A DNA stretch of 64,000 nt, taken from the NCBI GenBank assembly GCA_021163155.1, contig JAGGXI010000061.1, positions 18,768 through 82,767 of the forward strand, read 5' to 3'. A model generated the notes under the pieces. It saw only the letters and a program-made list of their open reading frames with translations. It had not been told where the DNA came from and made no database searches. Below are positions 2,885 to 59,078 of this stretch, piece by piece (the stretch's first letter is position 1; each line of letters starts with the position of its first letter). The position numbers and the translations under genes were made by a program. Source of the DNA: Candidatus Aerophobota bacterium (GTDB taxonomy: Bacteria; Aerophobota; Aerophobia; Aerophobales; JAGGXI01).

Positions 2885-3178
2885 GAAAAGGGATACCGGT
2901 AGCCGCAGGCTTTAGCCTGCGTAAAAGCAGGATTAGAGGGAAAAATAGGATTAGAGGATTTAAGGATTAGAGGATTAAAGAGAAAGAGATACCGGTAGCC
3001 GCAGGCTTTAGCCTGCGTAAAAGTAGGAGCAAAAGGAAAAATAGGATTAGAGGATTAGAGGATTAGAGGGAAAACCAAGAAAAAACAGAAACAAAAAAAA
3101 TAGGATTAAAGGATTAGAGAGAAAGGGATACCGGTAGCCGCAGGCTTTAGCCTGCGTAAAAGCAGGATTAAAGGGGAC
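2885..3178 (+). repeat. composite array of three REP-like elements (GATACCGGTAGCCGCAGGCTTTAGCCTGCGTAAAAGCAGG) interleaved with 8-bp GGATTARA tandem arrays and an A-rich AAAACCAAGAAAAAACAGAAAC module
   Basis: Core copies lie at about 2891-2939, 2988-3030 and 3126-3178. The GCAGGC-TTTA-GCCTGC stem-loop is preceded by GGTAGCC, a GTAG head. Tandem GGATTAGAGGATTAAAGG units lie between the cores. Confidence 0.85.
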
Positions 3179-6075: not shown

Positions 6076-8046
6076 ATGATGATAAATAAGAGGATATTTC
6101 TCCTTTATAATTTTAAAGAGGGGCTTTTTATTAAGAAGATAATAGGATTGATTGCTTTCTCTGTTTTAATCTTTGCTTCTTTGAACTCGATAGCTCATGC
6201 TTCCTCTATTATCACAGATATTCAAATAAAGGGAAATCAACATATTAAAGATAGTAAGATTAAAAAGATTATTAAAAGTAAAGTAGGCAAGGGTTTTTCG
6301 GAAACAAAGATAAAGGAAGATATGCAAGCTATCTATGATATAGGTTGCTTTTCCACCATTAAAGTTCTGAGGGAGAATACAGAAGGAGGGATGATACTGA
6401 TATTTGAGGTTAAAGAAAATAAAGAGATTACTCAAATTGAGTTTAAAGGGGGAGAAGACAATATAAGCAAAGTAAAAAAACTAATCACTTTTAAAAAGGG
6501 ACAGTTATGGAACTTTAAAAAAGTAAAGAAAAGCAAAGAAAAGATTTTGAAATTTTATCAAGAGAAAGGATTTTTCGCTGTTTCAGTAGATATCTCTCAA
6601 AATGGCTTAGGAGAAAACAAGTGTAAAGCTATTATTAATATTAAGCCAGGCAGAAAGTTTTTTATTTCAGAAGTTAAAATAGAGGGGAATAAGATTTTAA
6701 ATAGACAAAGCATTATGGAAGAGCTACAAATAAAGAAAAATGGACTTTTTATTCCTGACCAGCTTAATAAGGGAATAAAGAGAGTGCGAAATATATACGG
6801 AGAAAAGGGATATATTTACGCTCGTATTAAACATGATTTAGAAGTTAACCGGGAGAAAAATAGGGTAAAAGTTATTATTAATATAGAGGAAAATATTTTA
6901 GTAAGAGTAGGAGAGATTAAATTAAAAAGAGATAATATATCTTCTAAAGAAAGGATATTAAAACACACTTTTTTATTGAAAAAAGGAGATATATTTAATA
7001 CAAAGAAAATCCAAGAAAGTTGGCGTAGACTTTATAATCTTGGCTTCTTTGAAAAAGTGGAAATTAAACCTGTCCCTACTTCTTCTCCGGCTATAATAGA
7101 TTTGGTGGTTGAAGTAAAAGAGATAGAGAGAAAAGGAGAGTTAATTTTAGGGGTAGGTTATAGTGCTAATTCTGGATGGGGTGGAAATATACAAATATCA
7201 AAAGATAATCTCTGGGGAGAGGGAAAAAAGATAGGGATTGACTGGAATTTTGGAGAAAAGAGAAGTAGTTATGATATGGATTATCTGGATAGATGGTGGC
7301 AAGATACTTCTAATAGCGTTCGCATTAACCTTTATAATAAACTGCACACCTATGAAGATTATGAGAAGGGAGAGATGGGAGGAAGGCTAATTTTGGGATT
7401 CCCAGCAGGAAAATATACTCAGTTTTTTTTAAATTTCAAAAATGATAATGTAAAGATTACAAAAACAGGAAACTCTTTACCAGAAGGACTTGAAGAGGGG
7501 GTAAAGCTTAGAAGAATTTTAGGTCTTATGTTGCAGAAAGATACGCGGGTAAGAGATGAGGTTTTTAATTCTTATAAAGGTTCTTATACCTCTTTTTCTT
7601 TAGAGAAAAGCGGGGACTTTTTAGGAGGAGATATTAAGTTTGTTAGTTATGGAGCTGAGTGGAGAGGATATTTTCGAAAAGGTAGCCTTTGGAAGTTCCC
7701 TATCTTAGCTTGCCGTTTACAGGGAAAATTAGGCGAGAACCTCCCGTATACAGAAAAATTCAGTATGGGTGGTCAGGAGAGTTTAAGGGGATATAAATAC
7801 GGTGAGTTTGAGGGAGATAAGTTACTTCTTGGAAATCTGGAGTTAAGGATTCCTGTAGGTAAAGATTTTACATTTTTGCTATTTGTCGATAGTGGAAGAA
7901 TGTGGGATAGAGATTTAAAATTTTTTAAAACAGGTTGGGGGCTTGGGCTGAAAGTTAAGAGTCCTTTGGGTCTTATCCGTATGGATTATGGAATAGGGGA
8001 AGATAATAGAGGAAGATTTTACTTTGGAATAGGGGAGGGATTTTAG
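6076..8046 (+). CDS. bamA: outer membrane protein assembly factor BamA / Omp85 family (POTRA repeats plus C-terminal beta-barrel)
   Basis: 656 aa. Signal/TM segment, POTRA-like repeats (IQIKGNQHIKDSKIKKII), C-terminal barrel ending ...RFYFGIGEGF with aromatic terminal residues. Confidence 0.8.
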   Translation: MMINKRIFLLYNFKEGLFIKKIIGLIAFSVLIFASLNSIAHASSIITDIQIKGNQHIKDSKIKKIIKSKVGKGFSETKIKEDMQAIYDIGCFSTIKVLRENTEGGMILIFEVKENKEITQIEFKGGEDNISKVKKLITFKKGQLWNFKKVKKSKEKILKFYQEKGFFAVSVDISQNGLGENKCKAIINIKPGRKFFISEVKIEGNKILNRQSIMEELQIKKNGLFIPDQLNKGIKRVRNIYGEKGYIYARIKHDLEVNREKNRVKVIINIEENILVRVGEIKLKRDNISSKERILKHTFLLKKGDIFNTKKIQESWRRLYNLGFFEKVEIKPVPTSSPAIIDLVVEVKEIERKGELILGVGYSANSGWGGNIQISKDNLWGEGKKIGIDWNFGEKRSSYDMDYLDRWWQDTSNSVRINLYNKLHTYEDYEKGEMGGRLILGFPAGKYTQFFLNFKNDNVKITKTGNSLPEGLEEGVKLRRILGLMLQKDTRVRDEVFNSYKGSYTSFSLEKSGDFLGGDIKFVSYGAEWRGYFRKGSLWKFPILACRLQGKLGENLPYTEKFSMGGQESLRGYKYGEFEGDKLLLGNLELRIPVGKDFTFLLFVDSGRMWDRDLKFFKTGWGLGLKVKSPLGLIRMDYGIGEDNRGRFYFGIGEGF

Positions 8047-11499: not shown

Positions 11500-11598
11500 A
11501 GCAAGATTAAAGGATTAAAGGGAAGGAGATACGGTAGCCGCAGGCTTTAGCCTGCGTAAAAGCAAGATTAAAGGATTAAAGGATTAGAGGATTAAAGA
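11500..11598 (+). repeat. REP-like element (TACGGTAGCCGCAGGCTTTAGCCTGCGTAAAAGC) flanked by GGATTAAA/GGATTAGA 8-bp arrays
   Basis: Same core as at 2891-3178. The GGA-rich strand is on plus, matching the flanking ogt and secA. Confidence 0.85.
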
Positions 11599-20640: not shown

Positions 20641-20852
20641 TAGTTTAGTTCGGTAGCCGCAGGCTTTAGCCTGCGCTTTATCGCAACTTAAAAGTTGCGG
20701 CTACCATATCTATTTTCTTTAATCCTGTTTTTTGTTTTCGGTTTTCCCCTTTTTCTTTTCCCTCTAATCCTGTCTTTACGCAGGCTAAAGCCTGCGGCTA
20801 CCGGTATCTCTTTCCCTTTAATCCTCTAATCCTTTAATCCTCTAATCCTGCT
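20641..20852 (-). repeat. REPIN-like doublet (GGTAGCCGCAGGCTTTAGCCTGCG...GCAACTTAAAAGTTGCGGCTACC), then a minus-oriented REP core and CTAATCC arrays
   Basis: Inverted GGTAGCCGC/GCGGCTACC arms enclose two stem-loops (20648-20705). A minus-oriented core lies at 20775-20806 with arrays up to the mgtE stop. Confidence 0.85.
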
Positions 20853-22402: not shown

Positions 22403-22498
22403 AAAGCAGGATTAGAGGATTAAAGGATTAGAGGATTAGAGGGAAAGAGATACCGGTAGCCGCAGGCTTTAGCCTGCGTAAAAGCAAGATTAGAGGGA
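22403..22498 (+). repeat. REP-like core with GGATTAGA arrays in the suhB 5' leader, ending 8 nt before the ATG
   Basis: CAGGATTAGAGGATTAAAGGATTAGAGGATTAGAGGG-AAAGAGATACCGGTAGCCGCAGGCTTTAGCCTGCGTAAAAGCAAGATTAGAGGG. The terminal AGAGGGAAAAGAAAATG may act as the Shine-Dalgarno sequence. Confidence 0.85.
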
Positions 22499-22505
22499 AA
22501 AGAAA

Positions 22506-23288
22506 ATGATGGAAATAGCTGTAAAAGCCGCTAAAGAGGCGGGGAATGTATTATTAGATAACTTTGGAAAAGTTAAAGAAATAAAGACGAAGAGACAAAA
22601 TAATATTTTATCTCTTGTAAGTAATGTAGATATAGAGGCAGAGGAGAAGATATGCCATGTAATTAGGGAAATTTATCCTGAGCATAATATTCTTTCTGAA
22701 GAGGGAATGAATGTGAGTAAAAACTCTGATTATAAATGGATAATAGACCCTTTAGATGGTACTCATAATTATATTAGGAATATACCATTTTTTGGAATTT
22801 GTATAGCTCTTGCTTATCGGGGAGAGGTATTATTGGGAGTTATCTATTTGCCCTATTTTAGTGAGATGTTCACAGCCGAGAAAGGGAAGGGAGCTTATCT
22901 AAATGAGGGGAAAATTGAAGTATCCAAAAAAGGTCTAAAAGAAAGTATGCTAATTTATGATAGCGATCTTCACCTCGATAAAGCTATTATGTTTGGCTCT
23001 CTTAATAGGCTCGTGGGTAAAGTTTTTAATGTGAGGATGTTTGGCTCTTCTGCACAAAATCTCTCCTTTCTTGCCAGAGGTTATGTAGATTTAGTTATAG
23101 AATATCATGATAATCCTTGGGATTTTTCTGCAGGAGCTTTGCTGGTTGAGGAAGCAGGAGGAAAAGTAACAAATTTTGAGGGAAATAAATGGAGTCCAGA
23201 TGTGGGAAGATATGTTGCCTCTAATGGCAATGTGCATAACGAAGTTTTAAAAATATTAAAACGTGAGAGGCAAAAAAAGCAGGATTAG
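22506..23288 (+). CDS. suhB: inositol monophosphatase family protein (SuhB/IMPase-like)
   Basis: 260 aa. Motifs EEG (LSEEGMN), DPLDGT and the WDFSAG metal-binding segment. The stop codon TAG lies inside the first GGATTAG unit of the downstream repeat. Confidence 0.8.
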   Translation: MMEIAVKAAKEAGNVLLDNFGKVKEIKTKRQNNILSLVSNVDIEAEEKICHVIREIYPEHNILSEEGMNVSKNSDYKWIIDPLDGTHNYIRNIPFFGICIALAYRGEVLLGVIYLPYFSEMFTAEKGKGAYLNEGKIEVSKKGLKESMLIYDSDLHLDKAIMFGSLNRLVGKVFNVRMFGSSAQNLSFLARGYVDLVIEYHDNPWDFSAGALLVEEAGGKVTNFEGNKWSPDVGRYVASNGNVHNEVLKILKRERQKKQD

Positions 23289-23490
23289 AGAATTAGAGGA
23301 AAATAGATATGGTAGCCGCAACTTTTAAGTTGCGATAAAGCGCAGGCTTTACCCCGCTAAATAGTAGTAACATCTAATGGGGTTTAGCCTGCGTAAAGGC
23401 AGGATTAGAGGGAAAAGAAGGATTAGAGGATTAAAGGGAAAGAGATACCGGTAGCCGCAGGCTTTAGCCTGCGTAAAGGCAGGATTAAAG
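23283..23490 (+). repeat. composite REP array: REP variant (GGTAGCCGCAACTTTTAAGTTGCG), a REP core carrying a nested 33-bp ACCCC...GGGGT hairpin in its loop, GGATTAGA arrays, and a second intact REP core
   Basis: At 23341-23398 the sequence reads CGCAGGCTTT-[ACCCCGCTAAATAGTAGTAACATCTAATGGGGT]-TTAGCCTGCG. An intact copy follows at 23444-23478. Confidence 0.85.
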
Positions 23491-23508
23491 AAGAGTATGC
23501 TCTTAAGG

Positions 23509-23570
23509 AATACCACCGAATTTATTCAGTGGTAGCTTATGTCTACAGCGAAGCGGTGGTTTCAACCACC
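23509..23570 (+). repeat. third-family repeat copy; its second hairpin (GGTGGTTTCAACCACC) is followed by TTATTTT, which is terminator-like
   Basis: About 90% identical to 11623-11690. Confidence 0.7.
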
Positions 23571-23599
23571 TTATTTTATCTAAGGAAAGGAGATGTCCC

Positions 23600-24523
23600 T
23601 TGAGAAATTTAGAAGAATTAAAAAGAGAAGCTTTTCTTGCTGAAGATGAAGAATTATATGAATTAATTAAAGCAGTTAATAAAACTCTCCATAGGCAAAG
23701 AATTATTCAAAGAATAAACAATTTAAAGATTGAAGGGGGGTTAATTCATCTCCCGCCTGAAGGTATAGCTATTATAGTAGGGGATTTACATGGAGATTTG
23801 GAAAGCCTTGTCTCTATTTTAAAAGAGAGTAGATTTATAAAAAGAGTTAATAAGGAGAAAATATTTATAGTTTTTCTTGGAGACTACGGAGATAGAGGAG
23901 AAAACTCTATTGAAGTTTATTATATAATTTTAACCCTTAAAAGTGTATACCGAGAAAATGTTATTCTTTTAAGGGGTAATCATGAGGGGCCTAAAGACCT
24001 TGGGGTTAGTCCTCATGATTTACCATATTTTCTTAGGAAAAGATATGGAGAAAAATGGGAGAGGATTTATGTTAATTTAAGGGAACTATTTGATTTTTTA
24101 CCTTACAGTATTATTGTTAAAGATAAGTATTTAATGCTTCATGGAGGATTACCAGAAGATATTTCCTCAATTCACGATCTATCTTATGCTTATCAAAATC
24201 ATCCCGTTAAAAAGGATTTGGAAGAGATTCTATGGAATGACCCTGCGGAAATAGAGGGAAGCTATCCCTCGCCAAGAGGAGCAGGTAAAATATTCGGTAA
24301 AGATATTACTATGAAGATATTAAATAAATTAAACGTTAAAACTCTTATAAGAAGTCATCAGCCCTGTGATGGTATCCTCATAAATCATGAAGGAAAAGTG
24401 CTTACTCTGTTTTCTCGAAAAGGTCCTCCTTATTATAACTCTTGTGCAGCTTACTTAGAAATAGATTTATCTGAAGAGGCAAAAAGTGCTTACCAATTGG
24501 CAAAGAAGGCTTGTAAGTTTTAA
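23600..24523 (+). CDS. PPP-family serine/threonine protein phosphatase (calcineurin-like metallophosphoesterase)
   Basis: 307 aa. Signature GDLHGD, GDYGDRG and GNHE motifs. TTG start with an upstream AGGAAAGGAG. Confidence 0.75.
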   Translation: MRNLEELKREAFLAEDEELYELIKAVNKTLHRQRIIQRINNLKIEGGLIHLPPEGIAIIVGDLHGDLESLVSILKESRFIKRVNKEKIFIVFLGDYGDRGENSIEVYYIILTLKSVYRENVILLRGNHEGPKDLGVSPHDLPYFLRKRYGEKWERIYVNLRELFDFLPYSIIVKDKYLMLHGGLPEDISSIHDLSYAYQNHPVKKDLEEILWNDPAEIEGSYPSPRGAGKIFGKDITMKILNKLNVKTLIRSHQPCDGILINHEGKVLTLFSRKGPPYYNSCAAYLEIDLSEEAKSAYQLAKKACKF

Positions 24524-45935: not shown

Positions 45936-46130
45936 TTCCCTCTAATCCTCTAATCCTCTAATCCTTCTTTTTCCCTCTAATCCTGCCTTTACGCAGGCTC
46001 TGAGCCTCGCGGCTACCGGTATCTCTTTTTCTTTAATCCTGCCTTTTTGTTTCTGTTTTTTCCTGCTTTTCCCTCTAATCCTCTAATCCTCTAATCCTCT
46101 AATCCTGTTTTTTTTGTTTCTGCTTTTTTA
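45936..46130 (-). repeat. REP core (CGCAGGCTCTGAGCCTCGCGGCTACC subtype), CTAATCC arrays and an A-rich module between mogA and moaC
   Basis: CCCTCTAATCCTCTAATCCTCTAATCC...CCTTTACGCAGGCTCTGAGCCTCGCGGCTACCGGTATC...CTAATCCTCTAATCCTCTAATCCTCTAATCCTG. It overlaps the moaC 3' end. Confidence 0.85.
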
Positions 46131-48880: not shown

Positions 48881-48918
48881 AAAAAAGGCCAACTCCTTTT
48901 GGAAAAAGGTATTGGCCT
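48881..48918 (-). terminator. putative bidirectional stem-loop (GGCCAA...TTGGCC) with a T7 run on the minus sense; candidate terminator of the pgsA-pgpA operon
   Basis: Minus-sense hairpin followed by TTTTTTT. It lies about 170 nt downstream of the pgpA stop. Confidence 0.4.
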
Positions 48919-49087
48919 TTATAAAAAGTTCCCCTTTCCAAGAATGGGAGGCATAGTCATTTCTAACTATACCCTATCGGCCATCTACCATAAACTCTCT
49001 TTTAGGTAAGATAGCTCGGAGAATTTAAAAACGTAAATATAATAAAAAGAGCTGACTTAATTTAATAAATTTTCAGTGAGTTGTCAA

Positions 49088-57027: not shown

Positions 57028-57378
57028 TAGCCGCGAGACTCAGAGCCTGCGAGGATAGATATATACGCAACTTAAAAGTTGCGGCTACCACTTTTCATTT
57101 AGGATAATTTCCTCTCCCTATATAATTCTTTTTTCTTTTTTAGTTTTTCTTTCTCTCTTTTTCTTTCTCTCTTTTTCTCTAATCCTTCTTTTTTGCCCTT
57201 CACGTCTCACTTTTTACGTCTTACGTCTCACTGTTTTGCCTAATCCTTTAATCCTGCTTTTACGCAGGCTAAAGCCTGCGGCTACCGTATCTCCTTCCCT
57301 CTAATCCTGCTTTTTTGTTTCTGTTTTTTCTTGGTTTTCCCTTTAATCCTCTAATCCTTTAATCCTTTAATCCTGCTT
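57028..57378 (-). repeat. about 350-bp composite: REPIN doublet (57028-57095), T-rich microsatellites, a REP core (57255-57290) and CTAATCC arrays abutting the gatA stop
   Basis: GGTAGCCGCGAGACTCAGAGCCTGCG...CGCAACTTAAAAGTTGCGGCTACC, then ...CTTTTACGCAGGCTAAAGCCTGCGGCTACCG...CTTTAATCCTCTAATCCTTTAATCCTTTAATCCTGC. Confidence 0.85.
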
Positions 57379-58896: not shown

Positions 58897-59078
58897 CTTG
58901 ATGAGATTTCTGAAAAAGTCAGAAATCTCTAAAAATCAGTGTAATCATTTTTGAAAATCTGTGTTTACCCCATGAAATAGAGTATTTCACGGGGTGAATC
59001 AGGGGCCTCTCGATAGGGTTTTGACTTTTGGGGTGATTTTATTAAACTAAAACTATCTTATGCGATTGGAGCAGAAAG

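What the first reader, a model, noticed from the sequence alone, without database searches (positions are those of the whole stretch)
23341..23398. Nested insertion: an ACCCC...GGGGT hairpin element sits inside the loop of a REP stem-loop
The sequence CGCAGGCTTT-[ACCCCGCTAAATAGTAGTAACATCTAATGGGGT]-TTAGCCTGCG is a canonical REP (CGCAGGCTTTAGCCTGCG) split by a 33-bp member of the second hairpin family. Other second-family copies lie at 33978-34012 and in tandem at 34333-34403. An unmodified REP copy sits 50 bp downstream at 23444-23478. One small element landing in another is direct evidence of recent mobility, and it hints at a target preference for the REP loop or for T-rich single-stranded loops.
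Basis: seen in the sequence. Interest (0 to 1): 0.5.

Follow-up and report, generated by a model that had tools for sequence, protein, structure and literature searches.

The report
Nuclease-gene hairpin relic inside a REP
A 33-base hairpin repeat really does sit inside the loop of another small repeat (a REP) in this Aerophobetes genome, and the inserted hairpin belongs to a family found in many bacterial phyla whose two arms are the ends of a tiny nuclease (GIY-YIG) gene, which points to a mobile element that I could not find described.

Summary
Window 23341-23393 is the REP core CGCAGGCTTTAGCCTGCG (12 intact copies in the window) split in its TTTA loop by 35 bp. Those 35 bp hold ACCCC...GGGGT (23351-23383), and TTTA lies on both sides. 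A nested insertion is the best reading, but it is not recent. A 99%-identical strain carries the same composite, and this copy is the most decayed of five in the window.

Family 1 is a GTAG-tagged REP. Family 2 is not genome-specific. A scan of species-representative genomes found more than 117 loci in about nine phyla, plus two viral contigs. These copies show stem covariation, no bias in orientation relative to genes, and an excess of direct TNNA repeats in their flanks.

The main new result concerns small Slx1-like GIY-YIG nuclease genes. In 5 of 5 such genes sampled without regard to hairpins, ACCCCGTTAGAT lies just upstream of the ATG. In those same genes ATCTAACGGGGT lies at or just after the stop, and in two it encodes the C-terminus (..YLTG*). 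The solo hairpins are therefore miniature derivatives of a GIY-YIG gene cassette bounded by inverted repeats.

Which enzyme moves them is inferred, not shown. The source genome could not be censused.

The parts
23341..23393 (+). Composite: REP core split in its loop by the hairpin element
   Evidence: The arms CGCAGGC and GCCTGCG are separated by 39 nt here, against 4 nt (TTTA or TAAA) in all 12 other copies. As single-stranded DNA it folds as nested stems, -13.2 kcal/mol, z -5.4.
23341..23350 (+). Left REP arm plus loop bases (CGCAGGC-TTT)
23351..23383 (.). Family-2 hairpin, solo copy, decayed (ACCCCGCTAAAT / ATCTAATGGGGT). Read on the minus strand it ends GGGGTAAA, like the 3' end of the GIY-YIG gene.
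   Evidence: It has two stem mismatches against the consensus ACCCCGTTAGAT. Fold is -2.6 kcal/mol, z -0.55. Its closest relative in the window is the copy at 33989.
23384..23393 (+). Second TT plus right REP arm (TT-AGCCTGCG). With the last T of the hairpin and the following A this makes the second TTTA.
23311..23340 (+). GTAG-tagged REP variant GGTAGC-CGCAACTTTTAAGTTGCG-ATAAAG, directly upstream. It takes the place of the usual GGTAGC tag of the split REP.
   Evidence: The same two-REP arrangement is present in reverse at 20653-20710.
23450..23477 (+). Intact REP (GGTAGC-CGCAGGCTTTAGCCTGCG-TAAA) downstream. It is absent from the 99% strain L140 as part of an 80-bp REP-to-REP indel.
33989..34021 (.). 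Family-2 hairpin between csrA and the flagellin gene, well formed
   Evidence: Fold -8.6 kcal/mol, z -5.8. Conserved in strains L145 and L146 and absent from the 62-63% relatives L147 and L149.
34340..34373 (.). Family-2 hairpin, first of the pair between fliW and csrA
   Evidence: The window has two copies and strain L145 has three.
34376..34409 (.). Family-2 hairpin, second of the pair. Its G.T asymmetry is on the opposite strand.
58967..58995 (.). Family-2 hairpin, short variant (ACCCCGTGAAATA-CTC-TATTTCATGGGGT on the minus strand)
   Evidence: Fold -10.1 kcal/mol, z -5.7.
2904..2921 (+). Intact REP core
3000..3017 (+). Intact REP core
3139..3156 (+). Intact REP core
11539..11556 (+). Intact REP core
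20658..20675 (+). Intact REP core, part of an inverted doublet with the CGCAACTT variant
20779..20796 (-). Intact REP core
22461..22478 (+). Intact REP core
34948..34965 (-). Intact REP core
36136..36153 (-). Intact REP core
37952..37969 (-). Intact REP core
57263..57280 (-). Intact REP core

Best explanation
A solo copy of a widespread hairpin element was inserted into the TTTA tetraloop of a GTAG-tagged REP in an Aerophobetes genome. This produced a hairpin inside a hairpin. The insertion came after this lineage gained its REPs and before two present-day strains that are 99% identical diverged. The nested copy has since decayed.

The hairpin family is the pair of 12-bp terminal inverted repeats of a very small gene cassette that encodes a standalone Slx1-like GIY-YIG nuclease. 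The solo hairpins are its miniature, gene-less derivatives, comparable to MITEs.

What is shown:
- the anatomy of the composite;
- its uniqueness within the sequence available;
- that strains share it;
- the spread of the family across phyla, and its stem covariation;
- the excess of direct TNNA repeats in the flanks;
- that the arms are the ends of the GIY-YIG gene.

What is inferred: solo hairpins are moved in trans by the GIY-YIG nuclease. By analogy with Slx1, that nuclease may cut hairpin or cruciform loops. By analogy with other GIY-YIG enzymes, it may leave a 2-nt stagger, which would give the 2-bp duplication that reads as TNNA.
For: The composite:
- It is the REP consensus plus 35 bp placed exactly in the loop, with TTTA on both sides.
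- It is 1 of 13 REP-A cores in the window.
- The junction is absent from every other locus fetched.

Lineage timing:
- The same composite is present in the 99% strain L140.
- The 80-84% relatives have neither the REPs nor the hairpin at the syntenic site.
- The window carries 2 copies of the fliW-csrA hairpins and strain L145 carries 3. They are absent from the 62-63% relatives.

The family:
- More than 117 loci in about nine phyla and two viral contigs.
- Position 8 pairs as G:C in 61 copies and T:A in 46, and fails to pair in 6 of 115, although the search pattern left that position free.
- 116 of 124 copies are intergenic, with no bias in orientation relative to neighbouring genes.
- Direct 2-bp flank repeats occur in 39 of 121 copies, against 9.3 +/- 2.7 in shuffles. 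Their sequence varies within subfamilies whose inner sequence is nearly identical.
- One copy is an in-frame 39-bp insertion, with TACA on both sides, inside a gene whose homologues lack it (L086).

Link to the gene:
- All 5 GIY-YIG proteins chosen without regard to hairpins have both arms. Five more such genes lie in the loci that were found through their hairpins.
- In L177 and L179 the 3' arm encodes the C-terminus NYLTG*.
- About 70 of 120 homologues end in xYL[T/M]G.
- The protein has a PF01541 domain only and is related to PDB entries 1zg2 and 1ywl.
Against: - No empty site for this insertion was found, so insertion is inferred from the consensus and not seen as a polymorphism.
- TTTA on the right side can equally be the element's own vestigial stop codon (GGGG-TAA-A on the minus strand), not a duplication of the target.
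- Many solo copies have flanks that are not direct repeats (TTTA...TGAA, 21 copies).
- The three gene-bearing elements whose flanks I compared by eye, from the sequences (L150, L157; L071), match at 3 of 4 TNNA positions and are not exact repeats.
- No GIY-YIG gene lies in the window, and the rest of the source genome could not be searched.
- No GIY-YIG protein is known to act as a transposase (my knowledge).
- The metagenome scan for other split REPs did not recover the control locus, so it says nothing about this genome.
Confidence: 0.7

Rival explanations
1. The 53-bp composite is a compound repeat in its own right that spreads as one unit. It is not a one-off nested insertion.
For: The source genome could not be censused. 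REP families with long, self-complementary loops are known (PMC3733652). REPs with other nested hairpins in the loop recur in unrelated metagenome contigs.
Against: It is one of 13 REP-A cores in 64 kb. The junction occurs only at this locus in all contigs fetched, which add up to about 1 Mb. Among 146 family-2 copies only one other has an outer stem of 8 bp or more, and that stem has a different sequence.
Confidence: 0.07
2. The hairpin was there first, and the REP arms came to flank it through recombination or template switching between neighbouring REPs. The REP loop was never a target.
For: This intergenic region is recombinationally active. There is an 80-bp REP-to-REP indel and a 66-bp repeat indel between 99% strains. 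The split REP lacks its own GGTAGC tag and is fused to a REP doublet. A Logan contig joins this locus to the 20.6-kb REP.
Against: It needs two precisely placed half-REPs in the correct register, with exactly the loop bases retained. A single insertion needs one event. Relatives that lack the REPs also lack the hairpin at this site.
Confidence: 0.08
3. The solo hairpins are not derivatives. They are primary sites (landing pads) that the GIY-YIG gene invades by homing into the loop, and the hairpins themselves spread by some other means.
For: The gene sits exactly in the hairpin loop. Related GIY-YIG genes also sit inside tRNA genes, which suggests a taste for structured DNA. GIY-YIG homing endonucleases are well known (my knowledge).
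Against: In L177 and L179 the 3' arm is coding sequence of the nuclease (..NYLTG*), so arm and gene are one unit. 90 of 124 solo copies keep a stop codon directly after GGGG on at least one strand. 12-bp arms are too short for ordinary homing by homologous repair at non-allelic sites (my knowledge).
Confidence: 0.12
4. The nested structure is a functional RNA or a terminator for the upstream inositol-monophosphatase gene.
For: The composite folds well (z -5.4). Di Nocera et al. suggest that many GTAG REPs are transcribed and act as RNA elements (PMC3733652).
Against: No Rfam match. The composite is not called as terminator-like; the only terminator-like site in the region is at 23555-23570. 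Orientation of the family relative to genes is random. The structure is absent from 80-84% relatives. The inner hairpin is decayed.
Confidence: 0.03

Closest known systems
GTAG-tagged REPs, thought to be mobilised by RAYT tyrosine transposases (Di Nocera, De Gregorio and Rocco 2013, PMC3733652; REPINs of Bertels and Rainey, from my knowledge)
   Same: Family 1 has an unpaired GTAG(C) tag, an 8-bp GC-rich stem and a TT loop (their common 'TY' type). It has subfamilies with compensatory stem changes, inverted doublets, clusters and high intergenic copy number. The paper also reports REPs inserted within other palindromes and REPs with long self-complementary loops, so nesting of palindromes has precedent.
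   Different: Here the REP is the host and not the guest. No RAYT could be looked for outside the window. The same REP core occurs in unrelated metagenome contigs with 26-58% GC.
Bacterial MITEs (for example Correia elements, RUP, Rickettsia palindromic elements; my knowledge)
   Same: Family 2 consists of terminal inverted repeats with no coding capacity. It is dispersed in intergenic DNA, is occasionally in frame inside genes, shows signs of target duplication, and shares its ends with a gene-bearing element.
   Different: It is much smaller (29-45 bp against roughly 100-400 bp). It is conserved in sequence across phyla. The gene-bearing partner encodes only an 84-94-residue GIY-YIG nuclease and no known transposase.
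Insertion sequences that target REPs (IS1397/ISKpn1, IS110-family elements such as IS621; my knowledge)
   Same: The REP, and in particular the centre of the palindrome, is used as an insertion site.
   Different: Those are full IS elements with DDE or DEDD transposases. Here the insert is a 35-bp hairpin.
Free-standing GIY-YIG homing endonuclease genes (I-TevI, Seg proteins; my knowledge) and Slx1 structure-specific nuclease (PMC1564403)
   Same: The GIY-YIG catalytic domain is present. The distribution looks selfish: the genes sit inside restriction-modification and defence operons, tRNA genes and a phage contig. The Slx1 lineage cuts branched DNA.
   Different: There is no DNA-binding domain. 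The gene is bounded by its own 12-bp inverted repeats. Gene-less hairpin derivatives outnumber the genes. The 2006 survey treated standalone Slx1-like proteins as vertically inherited repair enzymes.

Membership tests
GTAG-tagged REP (family 1, the host element) | Short palindromic unit with a stem of 6-13 bp and a very short loop | tested here: met
   CGCAGGCT-TT-AGCCTGCG: 8-bp stem and a TT loop, or a 7-bp stem and a TTTA loop. Definition taken from PMC3733652.
GTAG-tagged REP (family 1, the host element) | Unpaired GTAG motif at one end | tested here: met
   GGTAGC precedes all 12 intact cores and the 5 CGCAAC-stem variants. The 4 CGCGAGGCTC-type variants also carry GGTAGC. The split copy itself has ATAAAG instead, because it is fused to a neighbouring REP.
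GTAG-tagged REP (family 1, the host element) | High copy number, intergenic, with subfamilies that differ by compensatory stem changes | tested here: met
   The window has 12 intact cores, 1 split core and 9 variant hairpins in 64 kb, against 0.01 expected. The variant stems are CGCAACTT, CGCAACCT and CGCGAGGCTC. CGCAAGCT and CGCAAACT occur in other contigs.
GTAG-tagged REP (family 1, the host element) | A RAYT (REP-associated tyrosine transposase) gene flanked by the REPs | not testable with these tools
   The window has none. Pfam on 10 small ORFs, and phmmer with RAYT and IS200 sequences recalled from memory against all loci, found nothing. The rest of the genome is not available.
MITE (family 2, the inserted element) | Terminal inverted repeats and no coding capacity | tested here: met
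   12-bp arms ACCCCGTKAGAT / ATCTMAYGGGGT with loops of 5-20 nt.
MITE (family 2, the inserted element) | Target-site duplication | tested here: inconclusive
   The flanks here are TTTA and TTTA, but these can also be read as the element's own ends. Across the family there are 39 direct repeats in 121 copies against 9.3 expected, and their sequence varies within subfamilies. About a third of copies have TTYA...TRAA instead.
MITE (family 2, the inserted element) | Ends shared with an autonomous element that encodes the mobilising enzyme | tested here: inconclusive
   The ends are shared with GIY-YIG gene cassettes in 5 of 5 unbiased cases. That the nuclease mobilises anything is untested, and no such gene was seen in this organism.
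MITE (family 2, the inserted element) | Filled and empty sites among close relatives | tested here: inconclusive
   For this copy the exact empty-site search found nothing and the 99% strain is also filled. For the family in this lineage, the window has 2 tandem copies and a strain has 3, and diverged relatives have none.
GIY-YIG homing endonuclease locus | A nuclease ORF inside the element at the site in question | tested here: not met
   An HMM built from the associated GIY-YIG proteins finds no ORF in the window.
Described RNA families (Rfam 15) | A match at or near the gathering score | tested here: not met
   Only a Moco riboswitch elsewhere in the window reaches threshold. Nothing meaningful appears at E up to 10 on the family-2 copies at 33940-34440 or on nested REPs from other contigs.
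Intrinsic terminator | GC-rich stem followed by a run of T | tested here: not met
   The composite is not called. The only site called in 23200-23700 is at 23555-23570.
Integron attC site | R''(RYYYAAC)...R'(GTTRRRY) order, 57-141 bp, arrays next to an integrase | tested here: not met
   By inspection the flanks run GTT...AAC, which is the opposite order. The units are 29-45 bp. No integrase recurs among the neighbours. The attC definition is from my own knowledge.

The most novel reading that the evidence does not exclude
The ACCCC...GGGGT hairpins are the miniature form of a mobile element that has not been described: a cassette of about 285-400 bp consisting of nothing but a standalone Slx1-like GIY-YIG nuclease gene. 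The leader and the 3' coding end of that gene form 12-bp terminal inverted repeats. The nuclease would move both the gene cassette and the far more numerous gene-less hairpins. It would insert them into TNNA sites, which are often the loops of other hairpins (a REP here, its own relatives, tRNA genes), with a 2-bp stagger. The element has spread horizontally through at least nine bacterial phyla and into phages, and it often lands inside restriction-modification and defence operons.
Probability: 0.4. Interest if true: 0.85.

Novelty: new variant of a known kind. Interest (0 to 1): 0.62.

Why it matters
Taken alone, one small repeat sitting inside another is a minor curiosity. It dates the activity of the inner element relative to the outer one and shows that the REP loop can take an insertion.

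The wider result matters more. A 12-bp-armed hairpin is conserved from Planctomycetota to Patescibacteria and turns out to be the two ends of a minimal GIY-YIG nuclease gene.

If the nuclease drives mobility, this would be a transposon or homing element built on a nuclease fold not known to serve as a transposase. It would also be among the smallest autonomous elements. It would give a function to the large orphan family of standalone Slx1-like/UPF0213 proteins, which have been presumed to be repair enzymes.

This would also explain a class of intergenic hairpins in uncultivated bacteria that could be mistaken for terminators or regulatory RNAs. The idea can be tested directly with a purified 84-residue protein and hairpin oligonucleotides.

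Tried and rejected
- Rfam at gathering and at permissive thresholds, on the window and on nested REPs from other contigs, gave nothing relevant.
- A literature search for the arm sequences returned only unrelated primer matches.
- Searches for GIY-YIG combined with REP, terminal inverted repeats, MITE, YhbQ/UPF0213 or Patescibacteria found no description of this element.
- BLAST of a consensus hairpin against GenBank phages and PLSDB plasmids gave only chance-level partial hits.
- All-against-all clustering of the genes next to the hairpins showed no dominant partner. The small GIY-YIG cluster was the lead I then followed.
- No RAYT or IS200-like ORF was found in the window or in any locus. 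The query sequences were recalled from memory, so this is weak evidence.
- The exact empty-site search in JGI metagenomes gave zero hits.
- The scan for other split REPs did not recover the known locus, so that collection lacks this population. It returned REPs from other organisms instead.
- I considered attC sites, hammerhead-like cores, parS or CIRCE-type operators, sequencing-adapter artefacts and intrinsic terminators, and rejected each on anatomy.
- The idea that solo loops keep ATG...AATT from the gene held for only 5 of 105 loops.

Full report
**Observation.** The stretch reads CGCAGGCTTT (23341-23350), ACCCCGCTAAATAGTAGTAACATCTAATGGGGT (23351-23383), TTAGCCTGCG (23384-23393). The uninterrupted 18-mer CGCAGGCTTTAGCCTGCG occurs 12 times in the window, seven on the plus strand and five on the minus strand, against 0.01 expected from shuffles. 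I paired every CGCAGGC arm with the next GCCTGCG arm. The spacing is 4 nt (TTTA or TAAA) in all 12 intact copies and 39 nt only here. The extra DNA is 35 bp, and TTTA lies on both sides of CCCC...GGGG.

The second family has five copies in the window, not four: 23351-23383, 33989-34021, 34340-34373, 34376-34409 and a shorter one at 58967-58995.

**The host repeat.** Each core is preceded by GGTAGC and followed by TAAA(A/G)GCAGG. It lies among arrays of the 8-mer AGGATTAG/AGGATTAA. Further hairpins carry the same GTAGC tag but compensatory stems: CGCAACTT/AAGTTGCG, CGCAACCT/AGGTTGCG and CGCGAGGCTC-type. That makes about 22 units in 64 kb.

These features match the GTAG-tagged REP superfamily of Di Nocera et al. 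(PMC3733652): an unpaired GTAG tag, a 6-13-bp stem, a 'TY' loop, compensatory subfamilies, inverted doublets and clusters. That paper also records REPs lying inside other palindromes and REPs with long self-complementary loops. Nested palindromes therefore have precedent. The defining partner, a RAYT transposase, is not in the window and could not be sought elsewhere.

**Organism and relatives.** The neighbouring inositol monophosphatase has its closest named relatives in Candidatus Aerophobetes MAGs. Five metagenome contigs carry the identical protein. Four of them are identical to the window across this intergenic region. The fifth is a Logan contig that jumps through the shared REP to the 20.6-kb locus.

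A strain with a 99% identical protein (L140) has the same composite, base for base. It lacks the downstream intact REP through an 80-bp REP-to-REP indel, and it has 66 bp more of the 8-mer array upstream. Relatives at 80-84% identity keep the gene order but have short spacers with no REP and no hairpin. The REPs therefore arrived in this lineage after that split. The hairpin entered one of them later, before the two strains separated.

An exact search of JGI metagenomes for the empty site found nothing. The nested copy is also the worst-preserved of the five. It has two changes that break stem pairs, and it folds at -2.6 kcal/mol (z -0.55). The copies at 33989 and 58967 fold at -8.6 and -10.1 kcal/mol. 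'Recent' is not supported.

**Is the composite a unit of its own?** Within reach, no.
- It is 1 of 13 cores in the window.
- The junction GCAGGCTTTACCCC occurs only at this locus in about 1 Mb of fetched contigs.
- A metagenome scan for CGCAGGCTTT-N(6-36)-AGCCTGCGTAAA did not return the known locus, so that collection does not hold this population. The scan cannot settle the question.

The scan did show something else. The same REP, tag included, occurs in contigs of 26-58% GC, some with two other small hairpins in the loop (for example CCGCCAAAGGCGG and CTGCCTTAGGCAG). The REP family is not confined to this organism, and its loop repeatedly holds extra stems.

**The inserted family is widespread.** I scanned one genome per GTDB species with ACCCCGYNARRT-N(5-20)-AYYTNATGGGGT. 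From the record titles they come from:
- Pirellulales and other Planctomycetota;
- many Patescibacteria lineages;
- Omnitrophota, Aerophobetes, Cloacimonadota and Elusimicrobiota;
- Bacteroidota, including Ignavibacteriales;
- Dehalococcoidia and several proteobacterial classes.

Two viral contigs also carry the hairpin, one of them four times. The consensus is ACCCCGTKAGAT-loop-ATCTMATGGGGT. Position 8 and its partner were left free in the pattern. They pair as G:C in 61 copies and T:A in 46, and fail to pair in 6 of 115.

Of 124 copies, 116 are intergenic. Orientation relative to the flanking genes is even (27/21/18/18 for the four arrangements). That fits a DNA-level element better than a cis-acting RNA. 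The motif is absent from GenBank phages and PLSDB plasmids apart from chance partial hits, and it matches no Rfam family.

**Signs of insertion.**
- Position -3 is T in 84% of copies and +3 is A in 83%.
- The two bases on either side of ACCCC...GGGGT are identical in 39 of 121 copies, against 9.3 +/- 2.7 when the flanks are shuffled among copies. Written around CCCC...GGGG these are 4-bp TNNA repeats: TATA, TAAA, TCAA, TGTA, TTTA, TTGA, TACA, TTCA.
- Within subfamilies whose inner sequence is almost identical, the repeat differs from copy to copy. One CPR subfamily has TATA, TACA and TGTA. Another has TATA, TCAA and TTCA. This is what target duplication predicts and what inherited flanks do not.
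- In L086 a copy lies in frame inside a gene. Removing 39 bp restores the ..FYTGS.. sequence that homologues have, and TACA is duplicated.
- About a third of copies instead have TTYA...TRAA, which extends the inverted repeat.
- The window's composite has TTTA on both sides.
- Only one other copy among 146 has an outer stem of 8 bp or more (L052). A preference for hairpin loops is therefore suggested but not established.

**What the hairpin comes from.** Clustering the neighbouring ORFs gave no dominant partner, but a small GIY-YIG protein recurred next to hairpins. I then took five homologues from a protein search, choosing them only for contig number or contig length. All five have both arms.

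In L177 and L179 the element is minimal: ACCCCGTTAGAT, 0-3 nt, ATG, an 84-codon ORF, and ...AAT TAT CTA ACG GGG TAA. The 3' arm therefore encodes the C-terminal NYLTG and runs into the stop codon. In L150 and L071 the arms stand 6-50 nt outside the ORF. In L157, L167, L106, L023, L037 and L086 there are extra solo hairpins beside or within the cassette.

About 70 of 120 homologues end in xYL[T/M]G. Longer tails read FTPLD, which is the translation of a following TTTACCCCGTTAGAT. In solo copies a stop codon follows GGGG on at least one strand in 90 of 124.

The protein has only the PF01541 domain and no NCBIfam model. Its solved relatives are the UPF0213 proteins 1zg2 and 1ywl. Dunin-Horkawicz et al. 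class those as standalone prokaryotic Slx1-like nucleases, presumed to be repair enzymes and mostly inherited vertically (PMC1564403). The homologues are 70-85% identical across phyla. The genes sit in the following contexts:
- between hsdS, hsdM and hsdR of type I restriction-modification operons;
- between a Fic gene and a methyltransferase gene;
- between AlbA_2 and HATPase_c_4 ORFs;
- inside tRNA genes.

That is the pattern of a selfish gene.

**Mechanism.** Shown: the solo hairpins are the paired ends of this gene cassette without the gene. They occur at new sites with varying short direct repeats, and one of them lies in the loop of a REP. Inferred: the nuclease supplies mobility in trans.

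Two pieces of background make this plausible, and both are my own knowledge. Slx1 cuts branched and stem-loop DNA, and GIY-YIG enzymes such as I-TevI leave 2-nt 3' overhangs. Such overhangs would give a 2-bp duplication after repair, read here as T-NN-A.

Against it, no GIY-YIG transposase is known. The three gene-bearing copies whose flanks I compared by eye match at 3 of 4 positions and are not exact repeats (sequences). No such gene is in the window.

The main alternative is homing of the gene into hairpins that were already there. It fits the position of the gene in the loop. It fits poorly with the arm being part of the coding sequence.

**Dynamics in this lineage.** Between fliW and csrA the window has two adjacent copies separated by TT. 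Strain L145 has three, the first of them a recombinant. Strain L146 has a 29-nt duplication that starts at the CCCC. Relatives at 62-63% identity have no hairpin there. The family has therefore been changing at strain level through recombination, even though the nested copy is fixed and decaying.

**Verdict.** The finding is real and the nested-insertion reading is the best one. It is an old, decayed insertion and not evidence of current activity. Its main value is that it led to a family of hairpins, spread across phyla, that derive from a GIY-YIG gene bounded by inverted repeats. I found no description of that element in six literature searches. Absence from the searchable library does not prove novelty.

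Noticed in passing
window 2929-3069, 11566-11597, 20815-20849, 22408-22442, 36080-36106, 37989-38123, 45939-45965, 46072-46106, 57340-57374: Arrays of the 8-mer AGGATTAG/AGGATTAA flank almost every REP, in the same orientation as the REP. The 80% relative L141, which has no REPs, carries the same 8-mer array after its stop codon; the 84% relative L142 carries a different purine-rich array (GTGAGAAGTAAGAA). The repeated A-GGA motif resembles CsrA binding sites, and the genome encodes CsrA and FliW. This is untested.
   Followed up: partly
L123, L127, L128, L130-L134, L137 (e.g. L123:2581-2640): The same GGTAGC-CGCAGGCT...AGCCTGCG-TAAA REP occurs in unrelated metagenome contigs (26-58% GC) with two further small hairpins in its loop. 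This forms a three-way junction whose inner stems covary between contigs (CCGCC/GGCGG; CTGCC/GGCAG against TCGC/GCGA). No Rfam match.
   Followed up: partly
L052:1982-2321, L081:5006-5425, L033:3890-4262: Homologous small GIY-YIG genes overlap the 5' end of tRNA-Ala or tRNA-Leu genes, and about 20-26 nt of the tRNA 5' part is repeated upstream of the ORF. It looks as if the cassette had inserted into the D-arm region.
   Followed up: partly
L157-L166 (e.g. L157:672-2501): A GIY-YIG cassette with hairpin arms lies between an AlbA_2 (Schlafen-like) ORF and an HATPase_c_4 ORF. As far as I recall these two domains usually belong to one protein, so the cassette may have split a gene. Other cassettes sit between hsdS/hsdM/hsdR genes and between Fic and methyltransferase genes.
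   Followed up: no
L144:2209-3253 and 6395-6434 (IMG/VR contig): A 13-kb viral contig carries four family-2 hairpins. Three are in the same orientation about 500 bp apart, each between small ORFs on the opposite strand, next to an HNH-AP2 homing-endonuclease-like ORF. HNH-AP2 ORFs also recur near hairpins in L020, L073 and L118.
   Followed up: no
window 48915-49033 (minus strand): A Moco/tungsten-cofactor riboswitch (RF01055, 79.5 bits) lies upstream of the molybdenum-cofactor biosynthesis genes.
   Followed up: no
L149:3424-3649: In a 62% relative the fliW-csrA spacer holds a different element of about 200 bp with long inverted repeats (CATTGCGAG...CTCGCAATG). The same spacer has therefore been invaded independently by another repeat.
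   Followed up: no
L005 (Logan SRR14000037 contig): This contig joins the 23.3-kb locus to the reverse complement of the 20.6-kb REP doublet, through the shared 38-bp GGTAGCCGCAACTTTTAAGTTGCGATAAAGCGCAGGCT. It is either an assembly path through the repeat or a real inversion between REPs.
   Followed up: no
L146:2203-2317: A strain variant has a 29-nt duplication of the fliW 3' end that starts at the CCCC of the first hairpin. The boundary has microhomology (CCCC).
   Followed up: no
family-2 copies in general (window 23351, 33989, 34340, 34376, 58967): Position 6 of the stem is usually a G.T (or A.C) mismatch in solo hairpins. Gene-bearing elements have a perfect G:C there. Among copies not selected by my pattern the count is about 12 G.T, 6 G:C and 1 A:T. 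It may be selection against perfect palindromes, but I have no test.
   Followed up: partly
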